Source: Flavobacteriales bacterium
GTDB taxonomy: Bacteria; Bacteroidota; Bacteroidia; Flavobacteriales_F; PHOS-HE28
Length of the DNA stretch: 32,000 bases
Assembly: GCA_016704485.1 (NCBI GenBank)
Contig: JADJAA010000001.1
Location: 2,271,975 to 2,303,974 of the forward strand
Reading direction: 5' to 3'
The translations under genes and the position numbers were made by a program. Numbering within the stretch: position 1 is the first letter of the stretch; the number at the start of each line of letters is the position of its first letter. Under the pieces are notes generated by a model. It did not search any database and was not told where the DNA came from. It saw nothing but the letters and a program-made list of their open reading frames with translations. This document shows, in pieces, positions 3,073 through 25,760 of the stretch.

Positions 3073-6000
3073 ATGAGTGAGAAGATACTTAAGGCCTTAT
3101 TGCAATTGTTCGCCATTATTGCGAAAGGCGATTCCGTTGGTAACGGTGATCGGCCGGAGAACTCGCTTCCATTGGAACGGTTCCTACGAAAACAGTTCAG
3201 TCCGGAAATAGCACTTGCGCACATGGCCAGGTACCATGCATTCGTGCAGGCATTTCATGCAAGTGGTGGTGAAAGCCGCTCAGGGCGAAAGCGTACTTCG
3301 TTGAATTCGGTCAAAGTGCTTAAGATCTGCACGCAGGTGAACGAAGAGCTTAACCAACGGCAGAAATTCGTGGTGCTTGTTCATCTATTGGAGTTCATTG
3401 TAGCCAATGGCGAGGTGAGCGCTCAAGAGAATGATTTTGTTGCCACTGTGGCCGAAACGTTCAATATTGGTCAGCAGGATTTCAACCGATGCAAGGTCTT
3501 CGTTGAACAGAATACCAAGGAACGTCAGGACGCAACGCACCTCCTCTACATCAATGCAGCAGTTGAGAATACGTTTGACTCTGCAAAGCACCTGCACGCG
3601 CATGGCCTGGAAGGTGAATTACGCGTTCTCCATCTGCCAAGCGTGAACCTGTACGTTATGCGTTACACCGGCCAGGATGAAGTCATGATGAACGGTCAAC
3701 GCATGGCTCAGGACAGTCATTACGTGTTGAGCAATGGTACCAGCGTACGCCCGCCGAACGGTGTGCCGATCTACTATAGTGATATCCTGAGTGCGTTCAT
3801 GGCCAAGAAAGGTCGTGCACGGTTGGTATTCAAAGCGGATGGGATCGAATACAAGTTCCCTAACGGGCGCATGGGCCTACATGAATTGCACATGGTGGAA
3901 CCCGGTGGCAAGCTCATCGGCATCATGGGAGGCAGTGGAAGTGGTAAGAGCACATTGCTGAACGTATTGAACGGGAATCTAGCGCCGAGCCGCGGGCATG
4001 TTACGATCAACGGCATAGATGTACATACTGAACGCGATCGTATACGGGGAGTCATTGGCCATGTTAGCCAAGATGATCTATTGATCGAGGAACTCACCGT
4101 GTTCCAGAATCTATTCTACAACGCAAAATTGAGCTTCGGTGACCTGAATGATGAGCAGGTAAGTGAGCGCGTAATGCGAATGCTTCAAACGCTTGGCCTT
4201 TACGATACCAAAGATCTTAAAGTGGGCAGTCCACTGGAGAAGACCATCAGTGGCGGTCAACGCAAACGCGTGAACATCGCACTGGAATTGATCCGAGAAC
4301 CGAGCGTGTTGTTCGTTGATGAACCTACCAGCGGTCTTAGTTCGCGGGATAGTGAGAACATCATGGACCTGCTGAAGGAACTCGCGCTCAGAGGTCGTTT
4401 GGTATTCATAGTGATCCATCAACCCTCATCGGAGATCTTCAAGTTGTTCGATCGCTTGCTGCTCATGGATCAGGAAGGTCATCCGGTCTATCACGGTGAT
4501 CCTGTGGATGCAGTTGTCTATTTTAAACGTGTAACCGGTCAAGTGAACAGTGAAGTAGGACAATGTGCGGCGTGTGGCAACGTGAACCCCGAACAGATCT
4601 TCAATATTCTTGAAGCTAAGCTAGTGGATGAATACGGGAACGAGACCGATCAAAGGCGCATAAGCCCGGAAGCATGGAACGAAGTGTTCCGTGCACAAGC
4701 GCCGGCACGTATTGCTCAGGTCGCCGATGAACGAAGTATTCCGAAAAGTACGTTCGCGATCCCGCGGAAGATCAGACAGCTCCAGGTGTACTTCAAACGT
4801 GATCTGCTTAGCAAACTGGCCAACCGCCAGTACGTGCTGATCAACTTATTGGAAGCTCCTATTCTGGCCTTTGTAATGGCCTTCTTTCTGAAGTTCTATC
4901 GCACAGGACCAGGTACCAGTGGCGAATACATTTTCAGAGAAAATGAGAACCTTCCGCAATACTTGTTCATTGCCGTAATTGTTGCGCTTTTCTTAGGATT
5001 GACGGTAAGTGCCGAAGAGATCATTCGGGACCGCAGGATCCGCCAACGCGAAAAATTCCTGGACCTAAGCTATACCAGCTATCTCCTAAGCAAGATCAGT
5101 ATTCTCTTCATGATCTCTGCATTACAGATGATCTTCTTCGTGCTGGTTGGCAATGCCGTTCTAGGGATCAGTGGTCTCACATTCGCACATTGGCTATTGC
5201 TGTTCAGTATTTCCTGTTTTGCGAACGTATTGGGACTGAATGTCAGTGCGAGTTTCAATAGTGCGAAGGTCATCTATATCATGATCCCGGTGCTGATCAT
5301 CCCTCAGCTTCTGTTCAGTGGCATCATCGTTAAGTTCGATAAACTGCACCCGTGGTTCGCATCGCAGAATAGTGTGCCGTTCATTGGTAACGTAATGGCA
5401 TCGCGCTGGGCTTACGAAGGGCTTGCCGTTACGCAGTTCATGGATAATGAATATGAACGGAACTTCTATGCGTTGGACCAGCGCATGAAGACCGCGAACT
5501 GGAAGAAAGACCTATGGGTGCGTGAATTGCAGAATTCCGTTGGTAACGTGCGGCGTGGATTGGATGGGCACATGGAGAATTTGAACATGGCCTATGAACT
5601 CGAGCTGTTGCGCGGGGAGCTGACCAAGGAGACTGAACGACTGAATGGATTCTCCGTTCCGGATCTGCAAAAGTTGGATCCAGAGCACGTTACACAGGGT
5701 GCACTGGACAGGGTAGATGAGAGCTTGAACATCCTGACCGAACATTACCGGTGGACCTATAAATCCGCGGAATCACTCAAGGAAGAACGCATCGCAAAAA
5801 TGACCGGTACGCCGGAAGCACGTGAGGCCTATTTTGAACTGTTGGATCAGTATAGGAATGAGAGCCTTGCCGATATCGTCACGAACAAGAACGATGTGAA
5901 CGTGATCGTATCCTACAAAGGTGAACTTGTACAAAAGAACGACCCCGTCTACTTGGAACCGGTCAAAGCTGGATTGTTCGGCGCTCAGTTCTATGCACCC

Positions 6001-6147
6001 GCGAAATATGTATTCGGGTTCCGGATACCTACGTTATGGGCCAACACGTTCGTGCTTTGGCTGATGTCCTTACTGCTTGCGATCGCGCTGAAATTCGAGA
6101 TCTTCCCCAAGCTGATGCATTTGATCCCGAACAAACGGTCTCACTGA
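3073..6147 (+). CDS. ABC transporter, fused ATP-binding and ABC-2-type permease (ABCG-like half transporter) with long N- and C-terminal extensions
   Basis: 1024-aa ORF. Walker A GGSGSGKST, signature ISGGQRKRVNIA, Walker B LFVDEPTSGLS and the H-loop region VIHQPS are followed by about 6 TM segments. An N-terminal extension of about 260 aa and a charged, coiled-coil-like segment of about 200 aa precede a final TM helix. Confidence 0.85.
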   Translation: MSEKILKALLQLFAIIAKGDSVGNGDRPENSLPLERFLRKQFSPEIALAHMARYHAFVQAFHASGGESRSGRKRTSLNSVKVLKICTQVNEELNQRQKFVVLVHLLEFIVANGEVSAQENDFVATVAETFNIGQQDFNRCKVFVEQNTKERQDATHLLYINAAVENTFDSAKHLHAHGLEGELRVLHLPSVNLYVMRYTGQDEVMMNGQRMAQDSHYVLSNGTSVRPPNGVPIYYSDILSAFMAKKGRARLVFKADGIEYKFPNGRMGLHELHMVEPGGKLIGIMGGSGSGKSTLLNVLNGNLAPSRGHVTINGIDVHTERDRIRGVIGHVSQDDLLIEELTVFQNLFYNAKLSFGDLNDEQVSERVMRMLQTLGLYDTKDLKVGSPLEKTISGGQRKRVNIALELIREPSVLFVDEPTSGLSSRDSENIMDLLKELALRGRLVFIVIHQPSSEIFKLFDRLLLMDQEGHPVYHGDPVDAVVYFKRVTGQVNSEVGQCAACGNVNPEQIFNILEAKLVDEYGNETDQRRISPEAWNEVFRAQAPARIAQVADERSIPKSTFAIPRKIRQLQVYFKRDLLSKLANRQYVLINLLEAPILAFVMAFFLKFYRTGPGTSGEYIFRENENLPQYLFIAVIVALFLGLTVSAEEIIRDRRIRQREKFLDLSYTSYLLSKISILFMISALQMIFFVLVGNAVLGISGLTFAHWLLLFSISCFANVLGLNVSASFNSAKVIYIMIPVLIIPQLLFSGIIVKFDKLHPWFASQNSVPFIGNVMASRWAYEGLAVTQFMDNEYERNFYALDQRMKTANWKKDLWVRELQNSVGNVRRGLDGHMENLNMAYELELLRGELTKETERLNGFSVPDLQKLDPEHVTQGALDRVDESLNILTEHYRWTYKSAESLKEERIAKMTGTPEAREAYFELLDQYRNESLADIVTNKNDVNVIVSYKGELVQKNDPVYLEPVKAGLFGAQFYAPAKYVFGFRIPTLWANTFVLWLMSLLLAIALKFEIFPKLMHLIPNKRSH

Positions 6148-6533
6148 CCGTCGACCTCTTCAATAAGGATCATTTTGAACGGTACGTTAATGATCCCAGC
6201 GTAGTCCTCACCGGCTTCGTGCATGTCCTCATCATCCGCTTCGTAATGCCACAGAATGATCACTTCGTTCCCGGCAGCACGGATGGCTTCCAATTTCTTG
6301 AAAACATCCAGAATGGACTTGGAAGAACTGGTATTGAAATATTCCAGTTGCATATGTAGCGTCGACTTGGCCTTTGGAGACCTACCGTATTGGTCGATCC
6401 AGTCGATCAATGGCTTGTAGAATTCAATGGAATTCTCCGGTATGGAGCGTCCTTTCAATTCCATGAGACCGCTCTCAGGATCGAAGTTCACATGAGGTGT
6501 CTTTGGTGAGCCTTCTAATTTCAACGATTCCAT
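6141..6533 (-). CDS. SiaC-like DUF1987 partner-switch phosphoprotein
   Basis: 130-aa ORF. The N-terminus LEGSPKTPHVNFDPESGLMELKGRSIPENSIEFYKPLIDWI and the YFNTSSSK motif match the DUF1987/SiaC family as I recall it. It sits directly downstream of a SiaB-like gene. Confidence 0.7.
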   Translation of the reverse strand: MESLKLEGSPKTPHVNFDPESGLMELKGRSIPENSIEFYKPLIDWIDQYGRSPKAKSTLHMQLEYFNTSSSKSILDVFKKLEAIRAAGNEVIILWHYEADDEDMHEAGEDYAGIINVPFKMILIEEVDGQ

Positions 6534-10166: not shown

Positions 10167-10823
10167 ATGGAAAAGCACGATCAACTCAATGACCTCGCCC
10201 ACATCCGTGGGTTGATGGACCGTAGTACCCGTTTTCTCAGCCTGAGCGGGATAAGTGGCGTTATTGCCGGAGTGGTGGCACTCGGTGGCGCAGCACTTGC
10301 GCAACATCATATTGCCGAGGCGTTGGGCTCTTCGCGCGATGTACTCACGTACGGAACCGGGAGCGAGTATGGCCAGGTGGATGAACTCCTGGTAACGCTG
10401 ATCACCGATGCTGCGATGGTTCTTGTCATTGCGCTCTCAGGTGCAGCGTGGTTCACGTGGAGGCGAGCTAAACGTACAGGACAGAACATGTGGGACGCAA
10501 GCGCGAAGCGGTTGTTGTGGAACATGATGATCCCGCTTTCTGCTGGCGGGGTGTTCTGCTTGGCCCTATTCTACTACGGCTTGCCCGGATTGGTGCCGCC
10601 AGCCACACTGGTGTTCTATGGCCTTGCACTCTTCAATGCAAGCAAGTTCACGTTGGATGAAGTGAAGTGGCTTGGTATAAGTGAACTGGTATTAGGCATC
10701 ATCGCATTGTTCTGGCTGCAGGCCGGACTGATGTTCTGGGCATTGGGCTTCGGCGTACTACACATTTTTTATGGCGGGTTGATGTATCTACGGTATGAGC
10801 GCAAGGATGCGATCAACAAATGA
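10167..10823 (+). CDS. Hypothetical membrane protein (first gene of the regulator-containing operon)
   Basis: 218-aa ORF with about 5 TM segments after the hydrophilic N-terminus LAHIRGLMDRSTRFLSLSG. An ATGA overlap joins it to the next gene. Confidence 0.6.
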   Translation: MEKHDQLNDLAHIRGLMDRSTRFLSLSGISGVIAGVVALGGAALAQHHIAEALGSSRDVLTYGTGSEYGQVDELLVTLITDAAMVLVIALSGAAWFTWRRAKRTGQNMWDASAKRLLWNMMIPLSAGGVFCLALFYYGLPGLVPPATLVFYGLALFNASKFTLDEVKWLGISELVLGIIALFWLQAGLMFWALGFGVLHIFYGGLMYLRYERKDAINK

Positions 10824-11107
10824 TCGAGCAACTCAATAAAGCATTCGAAAGTCGCGTTCGGCTGGGGATCATGGCCGTGCTGGTAGTACACCAGTGGGTT
10901 GACCATTCCATGCTGAAAGAACTTCTGGGTGTTACGGATGGCAATCTCGCTAGCCATCTCGCGGCCCTCGAACAATTGAAATATGTGCAAGTACGTAAGC
11001 GCTTCGTTGGAAAACGACCAAATACCAGCTACAAGGCAACACCCAGCGGAATTAAAGCGTTCCGCGATCACATTGATGCCATCGAACGTTTGATCCCTAA
11101 ACCCTGA
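10820..11107 (+). CDS. Small winged-helix transcriptional regulator (HTH_34/ArsR-like)
   Basis: 95 aa. The pattern FESRVRLGIMAVL....LKELLGVTDGNLASHLAALEQLKYVQVRKRFVGKRPNTSYKATPSGIKAF matches the winged-helix HTH_34-type family as I recall it. Confidence 0.8.
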   Translation: MIEQLNKAFESRVRLGIMAVLVVHQWVDHSMLKELLGVTDGNLASHLAALEQLKYVQVRKRFVGKRPNTSYKATPSGIKAFRDHIDAIERLIPKP

Positions 11108-18226: not shown

Positions 18227-19174
18227 TCAGAAGTAAGCGGTTATCACACATGAACCCCAAGCATGGTCACGTCCTGTGGTGAATTGGCGCGTAATGAAAC
18301 TCTTGGTGTAACTAAGTCCGATCCCGCGGTAGCGGAGCGTTACTCCGCCCTCTGCAAAAAGCACGATCCGTTCCATATTCGTCGGTGCGATCACGTGCGG
18401 ATCATAAGTGTTGAAGAGTCCTCCTTGAAAGGTGGCATCGTAACCAACAAAGCGAGCATTCCCTTGCAAGAATGTACTGATCCGAAGTTTCTTCAGGATA
18501 TCCACGGGTTCATCAAAGTGTGAATTGAACAGACCGATCTCTCCTCGCAAGTTCACGTCCGCGTGTGTTCGAAAGCTTCCAACAGTTGCACCAGCCCCAC
18601 CGCTGATCTCGGCGAATCGCGATGCGATCAACCGTTGGTCGAACTGTAGTGCGTAATTCACGATCACATCGTTCTGTATCTGGAATTGCCAACCCAAGGG
18701 TTCAATATTATTCAGTGCTTTATGGATCCCACGCTGTTCTCCGGCACACAAGGCGCATGGCCCGATAATGCCAATGGAAAGCGCTGATGTAAGCTGTTCT
18801 TTCCGATCCGTGTTGGTGGATTTTGAACGTTGGCCGATGTACAATGCTGCTGCGAAAGGACGATCGGTGCGCAAGATGGTATCGCGCCGGATGCTGGTCG
18901 GCGTAAAGCATTCCTGTTGTGCGAAGAGATTATCCTGCTGTCTGGCCGCACCGCTGAAACGTGGTAATACGTGGCGAAGCGGTGAGCTCGAGATCCACGG
19001 AGTACGTAATTCCAACCGTATGCCTTGAGTGAAGTATTGATCGGTTGCCGTGAAAAAATCATTGTCATACCGAAAGCGGAACCAGCGTTCTTCGGGAGTT
19101 CCACCGAATAGGTATGATGCACTAACACAATTAAAAATGATCACAACTAGTGTGAGCACGAAACGGGTCCCCAT
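18227..19174 (-). CDS. LpxR-like lipid A deacylase family outer-membrane protein (DUF2219)
   Basis: 315 aa with a signal peptide. The FRYDNDFFTATDQYFTQG motif, beta-barrel-like alternating sequence and C-terminal aromatic residue fit. Family recalled from memory. Confidence 0.6.
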   Translation of the reverse strand: MGTRFVLTLVVIIFNCVSASYLFGGTPEERWFRFRYDNDFFTATDQYFTQGIRLELRTPWISSSPLRHVLPRFSGAARQQDNLFAQQECFTPTSIRRDTILRTDRPFAAALYIGQRSKSTNTDRKEQLTSALSIGIIGPCALCAGEQRGIHKALNNIEPLGWQFQIQNDVIVNYALQFDQRLIASRFAEISGGAGATVGSFRTHADVNLRGEIGLFNSHFDEPVDILKKLRISTFLQGNARFVGYDATFQGGLFNTYDPHVIAPTNMERIVLFAEGGVTLRYRGIGLSYTKSFITRQFTTGRDHAWGSCVITAYF

Positions 19175-19268: not shown

Positions 19269-20741
19269 ATGGCGACCGAAACATTTAAATATCCCGAAAC
19301 GACAAATTACATCGCTGGTAAACCAGTGAACGGCACTCCCAAGAAAATGGATGTTCGCTCGCCGTTGGATGGGAGCATAATCAGTACCGTTGCACTTTCA
19401 ACCGCAAAGGATCTTGATGTCGCTGTGAAAGCCGCGGAAGCCGCATTCCCAGCGTGGAGCGGCACTCCGATCAAAGAGCGATCGCAGATCTTTTTCAGGT
19501 ACCGCGAATTACTATCCAAGAATCGTGAAGAATTGGCCCTGCTCGTGCATACAGAGAACGGCAAGACTATGGATGAGTCCTATGCCGAGGTGGACAAGAG
19601 CATGGAACTTACGGAATTTGCTTGTAGCCTGCCGCAGTTGGTACAAGGTGAATTGCTCGAAGTGAGTAAAGGCGTAGAGTGCCGTATCGAGCGCAAACCA
19701 TTGGGAGTGGTAGCCAGCATTGCACCTTTCAACTTTCCGAACATGGTGCCGCATTGGACCATCCCGAACGCATTGATGTTGGGCAATACCATGATCCTGA
19801 AGCCAAGTGAAGTGGTGCCGATCAGTGCCATTCGCATTGCTGAATTGCTGAAGGAAGCCGGATTGCCTGATGGTGTGTTCAATGTGGTGAACGGTGATCG
19901 CGAGATCGTTGAAGCGATATGTGATCATCCCGGAATTAAGGCGGTGAGTTTTGTCGGTAGTACCAAGGTTGCAAAACTGGTGTACATCCGTGCATGCGCA
20001 TCCTTGAAGCGTGCGTTGTGCCTGGGCGGAGCGAAGAACCACCTGCTCGTTCTACCCGATGCACATCTGGAAATGACAGCCAGTAACGTTGTAGCGAGCA
20101 TGAGCGGATGTGCTGGACAGCGTTGTATGGCCGCAGCGCAAATGGTGGGGATCGGCGCTGTGGACCACATTATTCAACAGATGCTTATCGAAGCCAAGAA
20201 GTTGATCCCCGGAAAGAATTTGGGACCTGTGATCAGCAAAGCATCCTACGAATGGATCCTCGGTTTCATAGATGAAGCGGAAAAGGCAGGTGCAAAAGTG
20301 ATCCTCGATGGTCGCAACCCAAAAGTGGATGGTGGTGCAAAAGACGGATACTATCTGGGGCCCACGATCATCGATCACGTTACTGCGGACATGCGCATTT
20401 CAAAAGAAGAAGTGTTCGGTCCCGTCATCAGCATTATACGAGCAAAGGACCTCGATGCCGCGATCGCGATCGAGAACGCAAACCCGTATGGTAATGCCGC
20501 TGCCGTCTTCACACAAAGTGGTGGACAGGCGCGTCAAGTCATGGAACGCGCCAGTGCCGGTATGATCGGTGTAAACATCGGTGTACCCGTGCCACGCGAA
20601 CCCTTTAGTTTCGGCGGTTGGAATGATAGCAAGTTCGGTACTTGCGACATCACGGGAAAAAGCTCCATTGAATTCTGGACACAACTGAAAAAGACCACCA
20701 CCAAGTGGAATCCTGAGGGGAAGACGAATTGGATGAGCTGA
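19269..20741 (+). CDS. mmsA: CoA-acylating methylmalonate/malonate-semialdehyde dehydrogenase
   Basis: ALDH fold with FNFPNMVPHWTIPNALMLGNTMILKPSE and catalytic Cys in GCAGQRCMA. GGAKNH replaces the usual ELGG Glu motif, which is typical of MmsA. Start is taken at ATG 19269 rather than the track's TTG 19236. Confidence 0.9.
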   Translation: MATETFKYPETTNYIAGKPVNGTPKKMDVRSPLDGSIISTVALSTAKDLDVAVKAAEAAFPAWSGTPIKERSQIFFRYRELLSKNREELALLVHTENGKTMDESYAEVDKSMELTEFACSLPQLVQGELLEVSKGVECRIERKPLGVVASIAPFNFPNMVPHWTIPNALMLGNTMILKPSEVVPISAIRIAELLKEAGLPDGVFNVVNGDREIVEAICDHPGIKAVSFVGSTKVAKLVYIRACASLKRALCLGGAKNHLLVLPDAHLEMTASNVVASMSGCAGQRCMAAAQMVGIGAVDHIIQQMLIEAKKLIPGKNLGPVISKASYEWILGFIDEAEKAGAKVILDGRNPKVDGGAKDGYYLGPTIIDHVTADMRISKEEVFGPVISIIRAKDLDAAIAIENANPYGNAAAVFTQSGGQARQVMERASAGMIGVNIGVPVPREPFSFGGWNDSKFGTCDITGKSSIEFWTQLKKTTTKWNPEGKTNWMS

Positions 20742-20746
20742 TAAAT

Positions 20747-20840
20747 AGAACGCTGATGACGCTGAAAGATCTGATGATCACAGATAGATGCTCCCTTTCA
20801 GATGCGCGTTGATCCATTCTTTCCCCGTCATCTGCGTTCC
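20747..20840 (+). repeat. Gene-less inverted-repeat (hairpin) element homologous to the arms that flank the GxxExxY genes
   Basis: The left end AGAACGCTGATGACGCTGA shares its 18 nt GAACGCTGATGACGCTGA (20748-20765) with 31185-31202. The right end GTCATCTGCGTTCC resembles GTCATCAGCGTTCC at 31641-31654. 19 of the outer 22 arm positions are complementary. Confidence 0.65.
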
Positions 20841-20862: not shown

Positions 20863-20934
20863 ATGAGCACGACCACCAAGACCAACCCCGCCGAGATCCA
20901 CAAGGACAATCTCGAGCATTCGGTCTATAGCTGA
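20863..20934 (+). pseudogene. 5' relic (23 codons) of a class-III aminotransferase gene
   Basis: It translates to MSTTTKTNPAEIHKDNLEHSVYS*. That matches the first 23 aa of the intact gene at 22966 (MSMQTKTNPSEILKDNLEHSIFS) at 16 of 23 positions. TGA replaces the TGG of Trp24, and similarity is lost after about 20940. Confidence 0.7.
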
Positions 20935-21046
20935 ACAAGTGATCTGGCCCTTCCTCGGTTTAAAGACAACAGTCGGAAGCCTGAGCGCGGGGAAGTGGGG
21001 CGGCAACCCTGATCCCTGCTAGTTCAAACCGCATACATTTACCATC

Positions 21047-22726
21047 ATGGAAGGTGTATCGCCCGTAATAGCGCCGCTTAGCCCCGAAGAGGTGCAGACC
21101 GTTGAGGAGTTCCGTAAGCGGCGGAATACGGCGGTGCTCGCCGTGATGTTCACGGATATTGTGGGCAGCACCAATGCAACGGAACGCTTGGGTGAAAAGG
21201 TATACACGGGCTTGCGGCATTTGCATGACGAGTTGGTTCGAAAGATCATTACTCGTGATGGAGCGGGTACTATCGTTAAAGAGATCGGTGACTCTTTTCT
21301 ATGCGTTTTCGCCGAGCCTTCTGCCGCTGTGGAACGTGCGGTGGAAGTTCAGCGGGCCATCCATATGAACCGCGAAAACCTTTCCGCAGGGGAATACACG
21401 CTCACAGTGCGGATCGGCATCCACATGGGACAGGTGGCTGTTGAGGATTCCTTGCGACAGGATGTTTTCGGTAGGCAAGTAAATATGGCGGCGCGTATCG
21501 AATCATTGGCCAGCGGTGGGCAAGTGCTTACGTCCCGGTCCGTATGGGAGAATGCCGTCGGTTGGGCCGCTAACGATCCATCGGCTGACATCGGCCATAT
21601 CCGCTATGGAAAAGCCAAACTAAAAGGCTTCGATGAGCCGGTGGAGCTCTTCGGCTTCCATTCGAAAAAGGCCGTTGTCCCGCCAGCGCCAGCGCCGATC
21701 AAGTCGCAAAAAAGACGATCCTTGTTTGCTGCGGTTTCAATAGGGATCCTCGTGGGCGCTATGGTCTACGGCCTATTCAAGTTGTACAACGGCCGAGTGG
21801 CTCCCAAAGATGTGGCATTCACCGACGGCAAACCGTATTACATCCAATTCGATTTTTCCGCCTTGCAGCCGGACAGCACTGCCGCTTGGGTGGACACGGC
21901 GGCCATTAAGAGCGCGTTCGTATCACAGGCCATTTTCGTGTTTGCACCCATGGCTGTTTGGGGCGAGGATGAGCTTAGGGCGCATTGCGCGAATGCGGGA
22001 ATTACATATAAGCGCCATCAGAATGAAAGTTCATTGGATTCACCTTTCTTTCGAGATACTTTGGGGCTCGCTGGTGCCTTTTTCATCACAGCCTTGCCAA
22101 TGGTCAAAGGTTCGGTCGATGATACGCTTCGGACGAAGGTGCGGAGCGATCTCTATCCGGAATCGACAACGTCAAACGCTGCAGTCGTCATGTGCTTTAT
22201 GACTGCGAAGGGGTTGGAGAAAGAGGCTCGGAACACTTTGCAGTATATAATGGATGTGAGTAAGCGGAAGAGCCTTGGAACGGTGATCATGGTGGACGAC
22301 AATACCTTCACCTTCAGGTTGGCGCCTGGTGCGGTCGTGTCCAAAGGAGCTAGGGTTTTCTTGAGACGGTATTACGTTGGCTACGAAGGCCTAAAAGTGC
22401 GACTGGCCGATACACATATGTATTTAGAAAACTACCGGAATGTTCTGCGGGATCCTGCGAAATGGGATGATTTGGTAGAGCCTGATGAATTACCTGAGGG
22501 CATGACGGTTCAGGATGCGCTGATGGCGGTCATCGGAAGTTTGGAAGGCGATTCGGTCGAGATCCAGAAGCAGCTGAATGATGATCCGAATTTCAGCGGT
22601 ACGTATTATCCTAGTGTCGCTGTGGGCGGCTTCGTCACCGCGATAGCCGATTCCGTGGCGCAGACCACGTGGGAAGGGGACTACCCTGACCGGCCACGAC
22701 CGGGCGATGATGTTCAGCTTGAATGA
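21047..22726 (+). CDS. Class III adenylate cyclase: N-terminal catalytic domain, one TM helix, uncharacterised C-terminal domain
   Basis: 559 aa. It has FTDIVGST (metal Asp), VKEIGDSF (Lys plus the second metal Asp), RIGIHMGQV and DVFGRQVNMAARIES. The Lys/Asp specificity pair predicts ATP. The TM segment is LFAAVSIGILVGAMVYGLF at about aa 226-245. About 310 aa follow with no motif I recognise. Confidence 0.85.
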   Translation: MEGVSPVIAPLSPEEVQTVEEFRKRRNTAVLAVMFTDIVGSTNATERLGEKVYTGLRHLHDELVRKIITRDGAGTIVKEIGDSFLCVFAEPSAAVERAVEVQRAIHMNRENLSAGEYTLTVRIGIHMGQVAVEDSLRQDVFGRQVNMAARIESLASGGQVLTSRSVWENAVGWAANDPSADIGHIRYGKAKLKGFDEPVELFGFHSKKAVVPPAPAPIKSQKRRSLFAAVSIGILVGAMVYGLFKLYNGRVAPKDVAFTDGKPYYIQFDFSALQPDSTAAWVDTAAIKSAFVSQAIFVFAPMAVWGEDELRAHCANAGITYKRHQNESSLDSPFFRDTLGLAGAFFITALPMVKGSVDDTLRTKVRSDLYPESTTSNAAVVMCFMTAKGLEKEARNTLQYIMDVSKRKSLGTVIMVDDNTFTFRLAPGAVVSKGARVFLRRYYVGYEGLKVRLADTHMYLENYRNVLRDPAKWDDLVEPDELPEGMTVQDALMAVIGSLEGDSVEIQKQLNDDPNFSGTYYPSVAVGGFVTAIADSVAQTTWEGDYPDRPRPGDDVQLE

Positions 22727-22888
22727 TAAAGTGCAACTCGGCTACATTTCAGGGCTTGGGATTCGACAGACCTATGACCTGTCCTGATCCAATATGCCAC
22801 TCCAATTATACGTGACTTTCAACAAAAGAACGCAGGCGAATAGCCTAGAAGAGCTTCAGATAAACCGAAGATAAATTGTTGAACTTTG

Positions 22889-22896
22889 TACGTTTG
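22889..22896 (+). promoter_or_regulatory. Candidate Bacteroidota -7 promoter box TACGTTTG
   Basis: A perfect TAnnTTTG match 70 nt upstream of ATG 22966. There is no properly spaced -33 TTTG; the nearest TTG is only 10 nt upstream. Confidence 0.3.
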
Positions 22897-22965
22897 AATG
22901 GAATCCGGATCGCTCCGGACCATCAACTAGCGAAATAGAAAGACCATGGCCCTGCGCCAACCAAC

Positions 22966-24318
22966 ATGAGTATGCAAACCAAAACCAACCCCTCCGAGAT
23001 CCTAAAGGACAACCTCGAACACAGCATTTTCAGTTGGAGCAAGCAAAGCGGCTTGATTCCACTGAACATCGAACGTGCAAAAGGGCTTTACCTCTACACA
23101 CGAGAGGGAAAGAAGATCCTCGATTTCAGTTCGCAATTGATGAACGTGAATATTGGGCATGGACATCCGAAAGTGGCGGAAGCCGTGGCGAAACAGATGG
23201 CTGAGCTGAGTTACGTGCATCCCGGTATGATCACCGAGGCTCGTGGAAAGTTGAGTAAGAAATTGAGCGAGATCACTCCTGGTACTTTGAACCGTACGTT
23301 CTTTACGAACGGCGGTACCGAAGCAGTGGAACATGCAATGAAGTTGGCCCGTTTGCATACCGGTCGTCACAAGATCATTACACTTTACCAGAGCTACCAC
23401 GGTGCTACATATGGTGCATTAACGGCAGGTGGCGATCCACGCGGATTGCCTCATGATAGCCAAGGTGTACCCAACATCATCCATGTTGAGAATCCGTACT
23501 TCTATCGCTGTCCTTGGAATAGCAAGACGCCTGAAGAGTGCACCGAGAACGCACTAGCACATTTGGAACGCGTGATGAAATTCGAAGGCCCGCAATACAT
23601 CGCGGCCATCATGATGGAAGGGGAGAGCGGTTCCAGTGGCTGCATTAAATACCCACCGGGTTATTGGAAAGGCGTTAGCGCAATTGCCGAGAAGTACGGT
23701 ATTCTGACAATTTGCGATGAGGTGATGAGCGGCTTTGGTCGCACCGGAAAGTGGTTCGGTATTGATCATCATGGTGTGGTGCCGGATATCATGTGCATGG
23801 CGAAAGGACTCACTGCCGGTTACATCCCACTCGGAGGTATCATCGTGAAAGAAGAGATCATCAAGCACTTCGATGATAAGCCATTACCCATCGGACTGAC
23901 ATACAGCGCGCATGCCGTGGCTTGTGCTGCGGGCAATGCTGTTCTTGATATTTACGAAGAAGAGAACCTGGTTGAGAATGCTGCCAACATGGGCCGCTAT
24001 GTGGATGAAAGTGTGGCCAAACTCGCCCAGAAACACCCGAGCATCGGAGATTTCCGCAATACAGGGTTGCTCGGTTGCATTGAACTGGTAAAGAACCGCG
24101 ATACCAAAGAACCCATGGCACCTTGGAACGCAACACCTGATCAAATGGGCGTCATGAACAAAGTGGCTGCCAAGCTGACCGAGCTCGGCATGTTCACTTT
24201 CGTGCGCTGGAACTGGATCTTCGTTGCACCGCCACTTACGATCGGCAAAGAAGGGATTGATGAAGGGATGGAGATCATCAGCAAGGCCTTGAGTATTGCG
24301 GATGAGGGGTGCAACTAA
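22966..24318 (+). CDS. Class-III (omega / beta-alanine:pyruvate-type) aminotransferase
   Basis: 450 aa. The blocks FTNGGTEAVEHAMKLAR, ICDEVMSGFGRTGKWFG and the PLP-Lys region DIMCMAKGLTAGYIPLG are present. The pathway context predicts beta-alanine/beta-aminoisobutyrate as substrate (inference). Confidence 0.9.
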   Translation: MSMQTKTNPSEILKDNLEHSIFSWSKQSGLIPLNIERAKGLYLYTREGKKILDFSSQLMNVNIGHGHPKVAEAVAKQMAELSYVHPGMITEARGKLSKKLSEITPGTLNRTFFTNGGTEAVEHAMKLARLHTGRHKIITLYQSYHGATYGALTAGGDPRGLPHDSQGVPNIIHVENPYFYRCPWNSKTPEECTENALAHLERVMKFEGPQYIAAIMMEGESGSSGCIKYPPGYWKGVSAIAEKYGILTICDEVMSGFGRTGKWFGIDHHGVVPDIMCMAKGLTAGYIPLGGIIVKEEIIKHFDDKPLPIGLTYSAHAVACAAGNAVLDIYEEENLVENAANMGRYVDESVAKLAQKHPSIGDFRNTGLLGCIELVKNRDTKEPMAPWNATPDQMGVMNKVAAKLTELGMFTFVRWNWIFVAPPLTIGKEGIDEGMEIISKALSIADEGCN

Positions 24319-24374: not shown

Positions 24375-24923
24375 ATGCCGAAGTCCACTACCTATATTCT
24401 GCTCTTTAGAGGTGTTGGCGGAGAAACACAACTACCTGTTGACCCATTGCGAAAGGCGCTTACGGAATTGGGCTTCACTGGAGTGACCACGTACATCAAC
24501 AGCGGCAACGCATTGGTGCGGAGCACGTTTACTCGGGATAAGACTCTTGCCAAAGTAGTGGAACTGTGCAAGGAGCAGTTCGGTTTCGATAAACCCATTT
24601 TCGCGTCAACGGCTGCGGAATGGGCTGAGGTGATCGCCAACAACCCGTTCCCGAACGCCTTAGCGACACCCAAGTTCTTGCACGCGGCATTGTTGGCTTC
24701 TGCAGCCGATGCGGCCCGTATAAAAGCCATTCAAGCTATAGCTGTGGATGGCGAGCAACTGAAGGTGGTGAAGTGCGTGGCCTACATCCACACTCCGAAT
24801 GGCTTCGGCACTTCCAAAATGGCCGCCAAATTCGATAAGGGTATTGGAGTAGTGAACACTGCCCGCAATTGGAACACTGTGCTGAAGTTACACGAGTTGG
24901 CCTTGGCGTTGGAAGAGATGTGA
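24375..24923 (+). CDS. DUF1697 domain protein
   Basis: 182 aa. YILLFRGVGGETQLPVDPLRKALTELGFTGVTTYINSGNALV matches the DUF1697 N-terminal pattern. Confidence 0.75.
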   Translation: MPKSTTYILLFRGVGGETQLPVDPLRKALTELGFTGVTTYINSGNALVRSTFTRDKTLAKVVELCKEQFGFDKPIFASTAAEWAEVIANNPFPNALATPKFLHAALLASAADAARIKAIQAIAVDGEQLKVVKCVAYIHTPNGFGTSKMAAKFDKGIGVVNTARNWNTVLKLHELALALEEM

Positions 24924-24992
24924 CGTAGAGGGCTCCGTGAGTTGATCTGTGAGCTGGTTCGCAATTGGTGTTTGAAGCCTTTGCGGAGTAAC

Positions 24993-25760
24993 TCACTCCT
25001 TATACCAATCCACCAGACGTACTTCGATCTTTGGATCACCCGTGTTCACCAGTTCTTTGAACCGTTCCACATCACTTAACCCTTCCGGACCGCGGTAGTG
25101 GCATGGATACACCACTTTCGGCTGAAAAGCAAGCACACCGCTAGCCGCTTGGTCTACTGTCATGGTGTATGGTAGGTTCATGCAAACAAAGGCGATGTCG
25201 ATGTTCTTCAGTGCGCGCATTTCCGGGATGTCCTCTGTATCACCGGAGATGTAAATGCGCTCTCCCCCCATAGTGAGCACATAGCCGTTGCCGCGTCCTT
25301 TTGGGTGGCGTGGGTCGTTAGGGTCGGGCATATTATACATTGGTATGGCCTCAATACCAATGCTGTTCTTTTCGATAGATGCGCCATTGGCAAGTACGGA
25401 AGTGATCTTTTGCAACGCTTCGGGGAGTAGGTCCATTACAGCTTGCGGCGCAATGATTTGCGCTTTGCTCAGATCAAATTCTTGCAAGGTCTTTGCATCA
25501 AAGTGGTCTCCGTGGATGTCCGTGATCAGGATCAGATCCGGTGCGGCATACTGCTTGAAACGATAAGCGCCATCGTGCGGGTCCACATAGACCGTTACGC
25601 CGTTCCATTCCAACACCAAGGCGCTATGGTGAACAGGTGCGATCTTGACGGCAGTTGCTTCGCTGTGGATCATATTCTGAGCGCTTGTCGTATTCATGGC
25701 AAAGGCGCAAGCGAGCGTAGCGCCAATGATTAGTAAATGGGAAGGTAGGGACGCTAACAT
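24993..25760 (-). CDS. Secreted MBL-fold metallo-hydrolase
   Basis: 255 aa. A signal peptide ends in SAQN. It has LITDIHGDHFD (an HxHxDH-like motif), ISGDTED and a distal H. This is the Lactamase_B_3-type small MBL architecture. Confidence 0.75.
   Translation of the reverse strand: MLASLPSHLLIIGATLACAFAMNTTSAQNMIHSEATAVKIAPVHHSALVLEWNGVTVYVDPHDGAYRFKQYAAPDLILITDIHGDHFDAKTLQEFDLSKAQIIAPQAVMDLLPEALQKITSVLANGASIEKNSIGIEAIPMYNMPDPNDPRHPKGRGNGYVLTMGGERIYISGDTEDIPEMRALKNIDIAFVCMNLPYTMTVDQAASGVLAFQPKVVYPCHYRGPEGLSDVERFKELVNTGDPKIEVRLVDWYKE

What the first reader, a model, noticed from the sequence alone, without database searches (positions are those of the whole stretch)
20863..22965. Diverged 5' relic of an aminotransferase gene marks a rearrangement junction now occupied by an adenylate cyclase gene
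Twenty-two nt after the hairpin element there is a start codon and 23 codons. They align to the start of the intact aminotransferase gene 2.1 kb downstream, with 51 of 72 nt and 16 of 23 aa identical by hand alignment. The relic ends at TGA where the intact gene has TGG, and similarity stops near 20940. Seven conserved residues use different synonymous codons. This suggests the relic diverged while it was still a functional homolog and is not a recent duplication. The simplest reading is that the original order was mmsA-hairpin-aminotransferase. A segment carrying the cyclase gene and a different aminotransferase allele, with its own candidate promoter at 22889, then replaced the native gene by illegitimate or homeologous recombination.
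Basis: partly seen in the sequence, partly recalled or inferred. Interest (0 to 1): 0.6.

Follow-up and report, generated by a model that had tools for sequence, protein, structure and literature searches.

The report
Aminotransferase gene stub beside inserted cyclase
A real 23-codon leftover of a second copy of a pyrimidine-breakdown aminotransferase gene sits where that gene normally starts, and marks the edge of a 2-kb cyclase gene cassette that was swapped in by recombination between related bacteria: an ordinary but well-documented scar of gene exchange.

Summary
Window 20863-20934 is a 23-codon ORF matching the start of the intact class-III aminotransferase (AT, 22966-24318) at 51/72 nt and 16/23 aa. 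The next best match anywhere in the 4.36-Mb genome is 39/72.

Synteny supports the ancestral order. In about half of the 30 congener loci examined, and in another family, mmsA is followed directly by AT. In 11 congeners the same palindromic spacer precedes AT, 9 of them with mmsA directly upstream. The stub therefore sits at the native AT start.

The stub is not a copy of the neighbouring gene. It is 96% identical over 56 nt to the AT start of another species (G080) but 80% to its own. Its GC3 is 0.87 against 0.56-0.60 for the host genes.

The cyclase with its two spacers (about 20941-22965) is a cassette. It is absent from the sister species G037 (RpoB 99%). It occurs at the same mmsA|AT interval in one distant metagenome lineage, with dS 0.34 against 1.7-2.1 for the flanking genes.

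Two further congeners carry independent AT 5' stubs.

The best reading is a scar of one-sided (homology-facilitated illegitimate) recombination at a recombination-prone locus. Which AT allele was the incomer is unresolved. This is an ordinary kind of event, and interest is modest.

The parts
19269..20741 (+). mmsA-type (methyl)malonate-semialdehyde dehydrogenase. It forms the left flank, and it is closest to sister species G037 right up to its 3' end.
   Evidence: Pfam Aldedh, E=7e-134. The likely ATG is at 19269. Identity to G037 is 85% overall and 0.92 over the last 90 nt.
20747..20840 (.). Gene-less palindromic spacer element, with arms at about 20750-20763 and 20827-20840. It is conserved at this position upstream of AT in 11 congeners, 9 of which have mmsA directly upstream.
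   Evidence: Sequence. The same element lies upstream of AT in G115, G063, G070, G076, G038, G089, G040, G074, G110, G080 and G087. It is 83-84% identical to the spacers of G087 and G063. Dispersed copies exist elsewhere in the genome.
20863..20934 (+). Relic: the first 23 codons plus TGA of a second AT allele, at the native AT start site. With a 1-nt gap, AT-like sequence continues to 20939.
   Evidence: It is 54/56 identical to the G080 AT start and 61/72 to G080, against 51/72 to its own AT. GC3 is 0.87.
20924..20941 (.). Junction zone. The last AT-like bases overlap the first bases alignable with the cassette leader of L049. The patchy microhomology means the breakpoint cannot be placed more precisely.
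   Evidence: Local alignments against G080 AT and against L049. The blastn match to L049 starts at 20941.
20941..21046 (+). Cassette leader ('X'). Its only homolog is L049:1382-1484, which follows a truncated DUF5615 gene there.
21047..22726 (+). 559-aa class-III nucleotidyl cyclase, with the catalytic domain at residues 31-167. This is the cargo of the cassette.
   Evidence: Pfam Guanylate_cyc, E=2.6e-19. It is 89% aa identical to L049, and the next homologs are at most 47%. dS is 0.34 against L049.
22727..22965 (+). Cassette-specific spacer between the cyclase and AT ('IGR2'). It is 84% identical to L049 up to about 6 nt before the ATG. A TAnnTTTG box lies at 22889-22896.
22966..24318 (+). 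Intact class-III aminotransferase, the beta-alanine/aminoisobutyrate step of the pyrimidine-catabolic cluster.
   Evidence: Pfam Aminotran_3, E=4e-93. Sister to G037 AT in the protein tree, with support 96/87. GC3 is 0.58.
24375..25760 (.). DUF1697 gene (24375-24923, +) and metallo-beta-lactamase-fold gene (24993-25760, -). In this species they lie between AT and the NCS1 permease. In most congeners AT abuts NCS1 directly.

Best explanation
The 23-codon ORF is a dead 5' fragment of an aminotransferase allele. It sits at the ancestral start site of that gene, directly behind mmsA and the conserved palindromic spacer. It is fused at about codon 25 to the leader of a roughly 2-kb cassette made of leader, membrane-anchored class-III cyclase and 239-nt spacer.

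The junction is the scar of a recombination event that was homologous on one side and illegitimate (microhomology-type) on the other. This is homology-facilitated illegitimate recombination between DNA of related species.

Shown here:
- The relic is real and orthologously placed.
- It derives from a different, high-GC3, G080/G087-like allele than the intact gene.
- The cassette is absent from the sister species.
- The cassette shares a much more recent ancestor with its only other known copy than the flanking genes do.
- The same gene start carries independent relics in two other congeners.

Inferred:
- The mechanism.
- The event postdates the split from G037.
- The order of events.

My rough odds for the order of events:
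- 40%: the relic allele was resident when DNA carrying cyclase plus AT came in.
- 25%: relic and cassette arrived together from a donor in which the scar had already formed.
- 15%: a later short foreign patch was joined to a cassette already in place.
For: - Relic significance.
- Ancestral mmsA-spacer-AT order: seen in G011, G037, G115, G063, G070, G068, G076, G119, G038, G089, G040, G074 and G110, and in family-level outgroup G029.
- Different alleles:
  - The relic is 96% identical to G080 over 56 nt.
  - At sites where G080 and the window's own AT differ, the relic sides 12:2 with G080.
  - Relic GC3 is 0.87, against 0.56-0.60 for host genes and a maximum of 0.80 in any 25-codon window of mmsA, cyclase or AT.
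- Cassette:
  - Only 41-47% homologs exist elsewhere in 60 congeners, and none is adjacent to AT.
  - G037, with RpoB 99% identical, has mmsA-AT without it.
  - L049 carries it between mmsA and AT. There dS is 0.34 for the cyclase, 2.06 for mmsA and 1.66 for AT.
  - The leader and spacer match nothing but L049.
- Recurrence: G057 has a 33-codon relic and G116 a 13-codon relic upstream of their own AT genes.
- Other inserts lie between mmsA and AT in G006 and G003.
- Precedent for this mechanism and for such scars: PMC3240628, PMC5361080.
Against: - No donor genome was found, so neither crossover point can be shown.
- The junction shows only patchy similarity over 16 nt, not a clean microhomology.
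- L049 has the cassette without a relic, so cassette arrival and relic formation may be separate events.
- The relic is only 72-77 nt and gives mixed signals. Its first 39 nt are G080-like (38/39). Codons 16-20 share AAT, CAT and the rare TCG serine codon with G037 only.
- The 12:2 site test uses the best of 27 relatives. Against the genus consensus the count is 9:3 (P=0.15).
- All same-species contigs are identical across the junction, so population data give no timing.
Confidence: 0.65

Rival explanations
1. One incoming segment carried the cyclase and a foreign AT allele, possibly through DUF1697 and the MBL gene. It replaced the native AT from codon 25 onward. The relic is then the lineage's own vertically inherited gene.
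For: - The relic is contiguous with native mmsA and the native-type spacer.
- In G057 and G116 the relic likewise keeps the recipient-type upstream context, while the intact gene carries a new leader.
- DUF1697 and the MBL gene are also extra relative to congeners.
- The relic shares the TCG-Ser20, AAT16 and CAT19 codons with sister species G037.
Against: - The intact AT is sister to G037's AT, and its GC3 of 0.58 matches the host.
- The relic has GC3 0.87 and is 96% identical to a distant, high-GC congener. That is not expected of an allele long resident in a clade whose genes have GC3 0.5-0.63.
- Homology with L049 ends at the AT stop codon, so DUF1697 and MBL are not part of the shared block.
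Confidence: 0.3
2. This is a local duplication model. Insertion of the cassette, by a Campbell-type single crossover of a circular intermediate or by replication slippage, duplicated the first 80 nt or so of the resident AT. The left copy then decayed.
For: - The two copies are direct repeats flanking the insert exactly.
- The shared cassette sequence ends about 6 nt before the ATG on the right and at about codon 25 on the left.
- The excess of third-position differences (P=0.02) could come from continued selection on the right-hand copy.
Against: - The relic is closer to alleles of other species (61/72 to G080, 60/72 to G087 and G070) than to its neighbour (51/72).
- It shares only 3 derived positions with the neighbour.
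- Its GC3 does not match the neighbour's.
Confidence: 0.07
3. The short ORF is functional. It could be a leader peptide or upstream ORF that couples cyclase expression to read-through from mmsA, kept by selection.
For: - It keeps the native start context and an open frame of 23 codons.
- It shows zero polymorphism in at least 10 same-species contigs.
Against: - The whole species shows almost no diversity (5-18 SNPs in 5 kb), so identity is uninformative.
- L049 expresses the same cassette context without any such ORF.
- Four of the five relic-unique changes, including the stop codon, cluster in the last 12 nt at the junction.
- There is no Rfam match.
Confidence: 0.03

Closest known systems
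Homology-facilitated illegitimate recombination (HFIR), described for Acinetobacter, Streptococcus pneumoniae, Pseudomonas stutzeri and E. coli conjugation (PMC3240628; de Vries & Wackernagel 2002 and Meier & Wackernagel 2003 as cited in PMC5361080)
   Same: Foreign DNA is integrated next to a homologous anchor. The other end is joined inside a resident gene at a short, imperfect microhomology. This leaves a truncated resident fragment beside the new DNA.
   Different: Here the process is inferred from comparative genomics only. Donor, anchor and exact breakpoint are not identified. The organism is an uncultured Flavobacteriales bacterium whose DNA-uptake route is unknown.
Sequential displacement of T6SS effector-immunity modules in Vibrio cholerae, and orphan 3' ends at Rhs/CDI loci (PMC5361080)
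   Same: There is recurrent replacement at one locus among related strains. Each event leaves remnants of the displaced gene, and several lineages carry independent remnants of different lengths.
   Different: Those systems leave 3' ends or immunity genes downstream and are driven by interbacterial competition. Here 5' ends of a housekeeping catabolic gene are left upstream, and the cargo is a signalling enzyme. No selective rationale has been shown.
Ordinary pseudogene remnant at the border of a genomic islet
   Same: A short, non-functional gene fragment marks where an insertion interrupted an ancestral gene order.
   Different: The intact gene is still present immediately downstream. The fragment comes from a different allele, so a simple insertion into the gene does not explain it.

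Membership tests
Class-III aminotransferase gene fragment (pseudogene relic) | Statistically significant similarity to the N-terminus of the family member | tested here: met
   tblastn E=5.7e-7 genome-wide. The relic scores 51/72, against a genome-wide maximum of 39/72.
Class-III aminotransferase gene fragment (pseudogene relic) | Orthologous position: same upstream gene and spacer as intact genes in relatives | tested here: met
   mmsA plus palindromic spacer directly precede AT in 9 congeners (11 have the spacer before AT). The spacer is 83-84% identical.
Class-III aminotransferase gene fragment (pseudogene relic) | Lacks the catalytic (PLP) domain, so it cannot be functional as an enzyme | tested here: met
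   Only 23 codons are present. The Pfam Aminotran_3 match in the intact protein starts at residue 26.
HFIR scar | Adjacent DNA is foreign to the lineage | tested here: met
   The cassette is absent from sister species G037 and from 59 other congeners. dS is 0.34 against L049, compared with about 2 for the flanks.
HFIR scar | Illegitimate junction at a short microhomology | tested here: inconclusive
   A 16-nt zone (20924-20939) aligns patchily with both AT and the L049 leader region. No clean shared block is present.
HFIR scar | Homologous anchor and crossover identifiable on the other side | tested here: inconclusive
   Sliding-window comparisons show no mosaic breakpoint in the intact AT against G037, G063, G115 or L049. 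Synonymous sites are saturated.
Tandem or target-site duplication | The two copies are each other's closest relatives | tested here: not met
   The relic is 61/72 identical to G080 but 51/72 to the adjacent gene. The site test gives 12:2.
Functional upstream ORF or leader peptide | Conserved wherever the downstream gene arrangement is conserved | tested here: not met
   L049 has the same cassette but no such ORF. No Rfam element is present.
Integron-type gene cassette | attC-like site with RYYYAAC / GTTRRRY cores and a nearby integrase | tested here: inconclusive
   By eye, the palindromic spacer arms (GAACGCTGATGACG / CGTCATCTGCGTTC) do not fit the attC core consensus. No integrase search of the window was run.

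The most novel reading that the evidence does not exclude
The start of this aminotransferase gene, together with the palindromic elements that populate the pyrimidine operon, may act as a recurrent capture point for gene cassettes in this Flavobacteriales genus.

The observations that leave this open are:
- Three of 42 AT-bearing congeners carry independent 5' relics.
- In G057 and G116 the incoming leader begins at the same nucleotide (TAA + GGGCGGGAA hairpin).
- The cyclase cassette has the same left and right limits in two different contexts, an AT stub in G000 and a DUF5615 stub in L049.

That pattern could reflect a structure- or nuclease-directed recombination mechanism rather than random illegitimate joining.
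Probability: 0.1. Interest if true: 0.6.

Novelty: new member of a known kind. Interest (0 to 1): 0.3.

Why it matters
The case gives a clean, datable example of how an accessory signalling gene was wedged into a catabolic operon in an uncultured wastewater bacterium, with the scar still readable. It also shows that the mmsA|AT interval is a recombination hot spot across a whole genus. For annotation, the 23-codon ORF should not be called a gene. The cyclase should be treated as recently mobile cargo, not as part of the pyrimidine pathway. The mechanism is well known, so the value is documentary rather than conceptual.

Tried and rejected
- GC and GC3 profiling of 20940-24318 against the flanks shows no foreign signal. 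GC is 0.50-0.56 and GC3 0.58-0.60, against 0.51-0.56 in the flanks.
- An mmsA protein tree is unresolved because the protein is too conserved, so it could not be used as a local species proxy.
- Sliding-window searches for a mosaic breakpoint in the intact AT found nothing. The same search at the 3' end of mmsA also found nothing, and mmsA stays G037-like to its last codons.
- Population data do not help. At least 23 same-species contigs from wastewater metagenomes share the arrangement, and the 10 compared show zero SNPs across the junction, so timing cannot be inferred.
- A search of the genus for the relic-to-leader junction found it nowhere else.
- Rfam and the sigma-70/terminator scans gave nothing above background. 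The sigma-70 model is also inappropriate for Bacteroidota.
- Campbell-type integration was considered. It predicts a relic whose 5' half resembles the native (G037-like) allele, and the opposite is seen.
- I first thought the relic's similarity to G037 (72%) was too low for vertical descent. I rejected that argument because W-G037 synonymous divergence (dS 0.4-1.5) allows it.
Full report
**What is there.**
- Window 20863-20934 is an ATG-initiated ORF of 23 codons ending in TGA.
- Aligned without gaps to the start of the intact class-III aminotransferase (AT, 22966-24318), it matches at 51/72 nt and 16/23 aa.
- Seven conserved residues use different codons, and the relic's TGA faces TGG in the intact gene.
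- There is no similarity upstream of the ATG. With a single 1-nt gap, AT-like sequence continues to 20939.
- The match is far beyond chance. tblastn of the peptide against the whole 4.36-Mb genome gives E=5.7e-7, against E=4 for the next hit.
- Sliding the AT 72-mer over both strands of all seven contigs finds nothing above 39/72 except the relic. The repeat finder recovers the pair independently.

**Gene context.**
- The window carries, in order: LpxR (-), mmsA-type aldehyde dehydrogenase (+), the palindromic spacer, the relic, and a 559-aa class-III nucleotidyl cyclase.
- These are followed by a 239-nt spacer, AT, a DUF1697 gene, a metallo-beta-lactamase-fold gene (-) and an NCS1 permease.
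- Earlier notes of this scan place these genes in a reductive pyrimidine-catabolic cluster. Those notes also describe the palindromic elements as a repeat family.
- The organism belongs to a genus of uncultured Flavobacteriales, mostly activated-sludge MAGs.

**Synteny.**
- AT orthologs occur in 42 of 131 congeners.
- In about half of the 30 loci examined, mmsA lies directly upstream of AT, with a spacer of about 110-130 nt. The same adjacency is seen in G011 and in a genome of another family, G029.
- In 11 congeners that spacer is the same palindromic element as at 20747-20840. It is 83-84% identical in G087 and G063.
- The relic therefore occupies exactly the ancestral AT start site.
- Other congeners carry unrelated inserts at the same interval. 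G006 has 1.6 kb with a reverse-strand ORF, and G003 has 1.3 kb of repeat-rich DNA. In most congeners AT abuts the NCS1 gene directly.

**The relic is a different allele, not a copy of its neighbour.**
- It is 61/72 identical to the AT start of G080 and 60/72 to G087 and G070, but 51/72 to its own genome's AT.
- BLAST gives 96% identity over the first 56 nt to G080.
- At sites where G080 and the window's AT differ, the relic sides 12:2 with G080. This gives P=0.013, uncorrected for picking the best of 27 relatives. Against the genus consensus the count is 9:3.
- The relic's GC3 is 0.87 (20 of 23 codons). Host genes, including mmsA, cyclase and AT, have GC3 0.56-0.60, and no 25-codon window in those three genes exceeds 0.80.
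- P(≥20/23) is 0.003 at the host GC3 of 0.58, and 0.05 at the 0.70 of the AT N-terminus.
- Most congeners have AT GC3 of 0.72-0.93. Only G000 and G037 are low.

**The intact AT looks native.**
- RpoB identifies G037 as the sister species at 99% aa identity. The next closest genomes are at 93-94%.
- In an AT protein tree the window's AT is sister to G037's, with support 96/87, within a 100/99 clade that also holds G063 and G115.
- Nucleotide identity to G037 is 82% for AT, 85% for mmsA and 83% for NCS1. The surrounding window is 84-88% identical.
- dS against G037 is 0.43 for rpoB, 0.56-0.97 for the two neighbours, 1.14 for mmsA and 1.49 for AT.
- mmsA stays closest to G037 up to its last codons.
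The relic is the outlier.

**The cyclase is a cassette.**
- Among 60 congeners searched, only 41-47% identical homologs exist, and none is next to AT. G037 has mmsA-AT with no cyclase between them.
- A search of 5.8 billion proteins finds only the species' own sequence and one 89% identical protein. Everything else is at 46% or below.
- That 89% protein lies on metagenome contig L049. Its order is mmsA, 34 nt, DUF433, a DUF5615 gene cut to its first 28 profile positions, cyclase, spacer, AT.
- Against L049, mmsA is 81% identical and its homology stops at the stop codon. Homology resumes at window 20941, just after the relic, and runs to the end of AT.
- Within that stretch the cyclase is 87-97% identical, apart from a variable segment at 21900-22250. 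The 239-nt spacer is 78-87% identical up to about 6 nt before the ATG. The first 150 nt of AT are only 69-74% identical.
- dS is 0.34 for the cyclase, against 2.06 for mmsA and 1.66 for AT.
- L049's AT belongs to a different clade, with G065, G052 and G119.
- The unit of leader, cyclase and spacer therefore shares a far more recent ancestor in the two lineages than the genes around it. That divergence is smaller than even the rpoB divergence between G000 and its sister species.
- I infer that the cassette moved horizontally after the G000/G037 split. The leader and spacer match nothing else in any locus fetched.

**Recurrence.**
- G057 has a 33-codon AT stub, 83/99 identical to its own AT, lying 37 nt upstream of the real start.
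- G116 has a 13-codon stub, 28/39 identical, lying 46 nt upstream.
- In both, the stub is followed by TAA and a GGGCGGGAA..TTCCCGCCC hairpin leader. That leader is the native AT leader type of G011 and G119.
- No stub was seen in about 50 AT loci outside the genus.
- Allele replacement with a left breakpoint inside the first 100 nt of AT has thus happened at least three times in this genus.

**Mechanism.**
- A truncated resident-position fragment is fused to non-homologous DNA, and that DNA is followed by a complete homolog. This is the expected product of homology-facilitated illegitimate recombination: a homologous anchor on one side and a microhomology join on the other (PMC3240628).
- Comparable strings of remnants are described for T6SS effector modules and Rhs loci (PMC5361080).
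- The junction here is a 16-nt zone (20924-20939) that aligns patchily with both AT and the L049 leader region. Four of the five relic-unique substitutions, including the stop codon, fall in its last 12 nt. This fits a messy join better than long neutral decay.

**What remains open.**
- The order of events and the identity of the incomer are unresolved.
The incoming AT must then have come from a very close relative.
- Alternatively, relic and cassette arrived together from a donor in which the scar already existed. A third option is that a short foreign patch was later joined to a cassette already in place. L049, which has the cassette but no relic, shows such a state exists.
- The relic itself gives mixed signals. 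Its first 39 nt are G080-like (38/39), while codons 16-20 share AAT, CAT and the rare TCG serine codon only with G037.
- At least 23 same-species contigs from wastewater metagenomes show the identical arrangement, and the 10 compared have no SNP across the junction. The scar is therefore fixed, but it cannot be dated from population data.

**Minor points.**
- The candidate promoter at 22889 matches the Bacteroidota -7 consensus TAnnTTTG. That consensus is from my own knowledge of Bacteroidota promoters. The box is not conserved in L049.
- The sigma-70 and terminator scans and Rfam gave nothing useful.

**Verdict.** The finding is a real recombination scar of a known kind, at a locus that is unusually recombination-prone in this genus.

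Noticed in passing
L057 (G057:C11) 1712-1810 and L036 (G116:C221) 808-846: Two other congeners carry independent 5' stubs of the same aminotransferase gene, of 33 and 13 codons, just upstream of their intact copies. In each case the stub is followed by TAA plus a GGGCGGGAA..TTCCCGCCC hairpin leader. In both genomes the incoming leader starts at the same nucleotide.
   Followed up: partly
L049 1075-1430: In the only other lineage with the cyclase cassette, a DUF433 gene and a DUF5615 (PIN-like toxin) gene lie between mmsA and the cyclase. The DUF5615 gene is truncated to its first 28 profile positions. This looks like a broken toxin-antitoxin pair at the same junction.
   Followed up: partly
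window 21900-22250: Between G000 and L049, the segment of the cyclase just after the predicted membrane helix is much more diverged (dN 0.17, nt identity 0.73-0.81) than the rest of the gene (0.87-0.97). It may be a fast-evolving or mosaic part of the uncharacterised C-terminal domain.
   Followed up: no
L144 (G037:C144) 4773-6380 and 10255-11028: Sister species G037 has a 41% identical cyclase paralog and a 68% identical homolog of the window's MBL-fold gene about 4 kb apart, in an unrelated locus. G000 has single copies of both, and both flank AT. This could reflect a functional or physical linkage of cyclase and MBL genes.
   Followed up: partly
window 18227-19174: The LpxR gene lies between DUF520 and mmsA in this species. 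In G006 and G011, DUF520 and mmsA are less than 100 nt apart. In G037 there is an 800-nt gap with no LpxR match. This looks like another lineage-specific insertion at the edge of the cluster.
   Followed up: no
L058 (G080:C10) and L059 (G087:C16), about 130 nt upstream of AT: In G080 and G087 the palindromic spacer and AT are preceded by only about 12 nt resembling the mmsA 3' end (..GGATGA..TGA). No mmsA lies within 6 kb. This suggests a rearrangement on the other side of the same spacer.
   Followed up: no
L008 (G011:C3), AT gene: The G011 AT ortholog, which is adjacent to mmsA, shows several frameshifts and four in-frame TGA codons. It is either a pseudogene or the product of assembly errors in a 78%-complete MAG.
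   Followed up: no
window 20747-20840: The gene-less palindromic element after mmsA is present at the same position upstream of AT in 11 congeners, at 70-84% identity. It is therefore an old, maintained feature of this interval and not a recent empty site. In G037 it has degenerated.
   Followed up: partly
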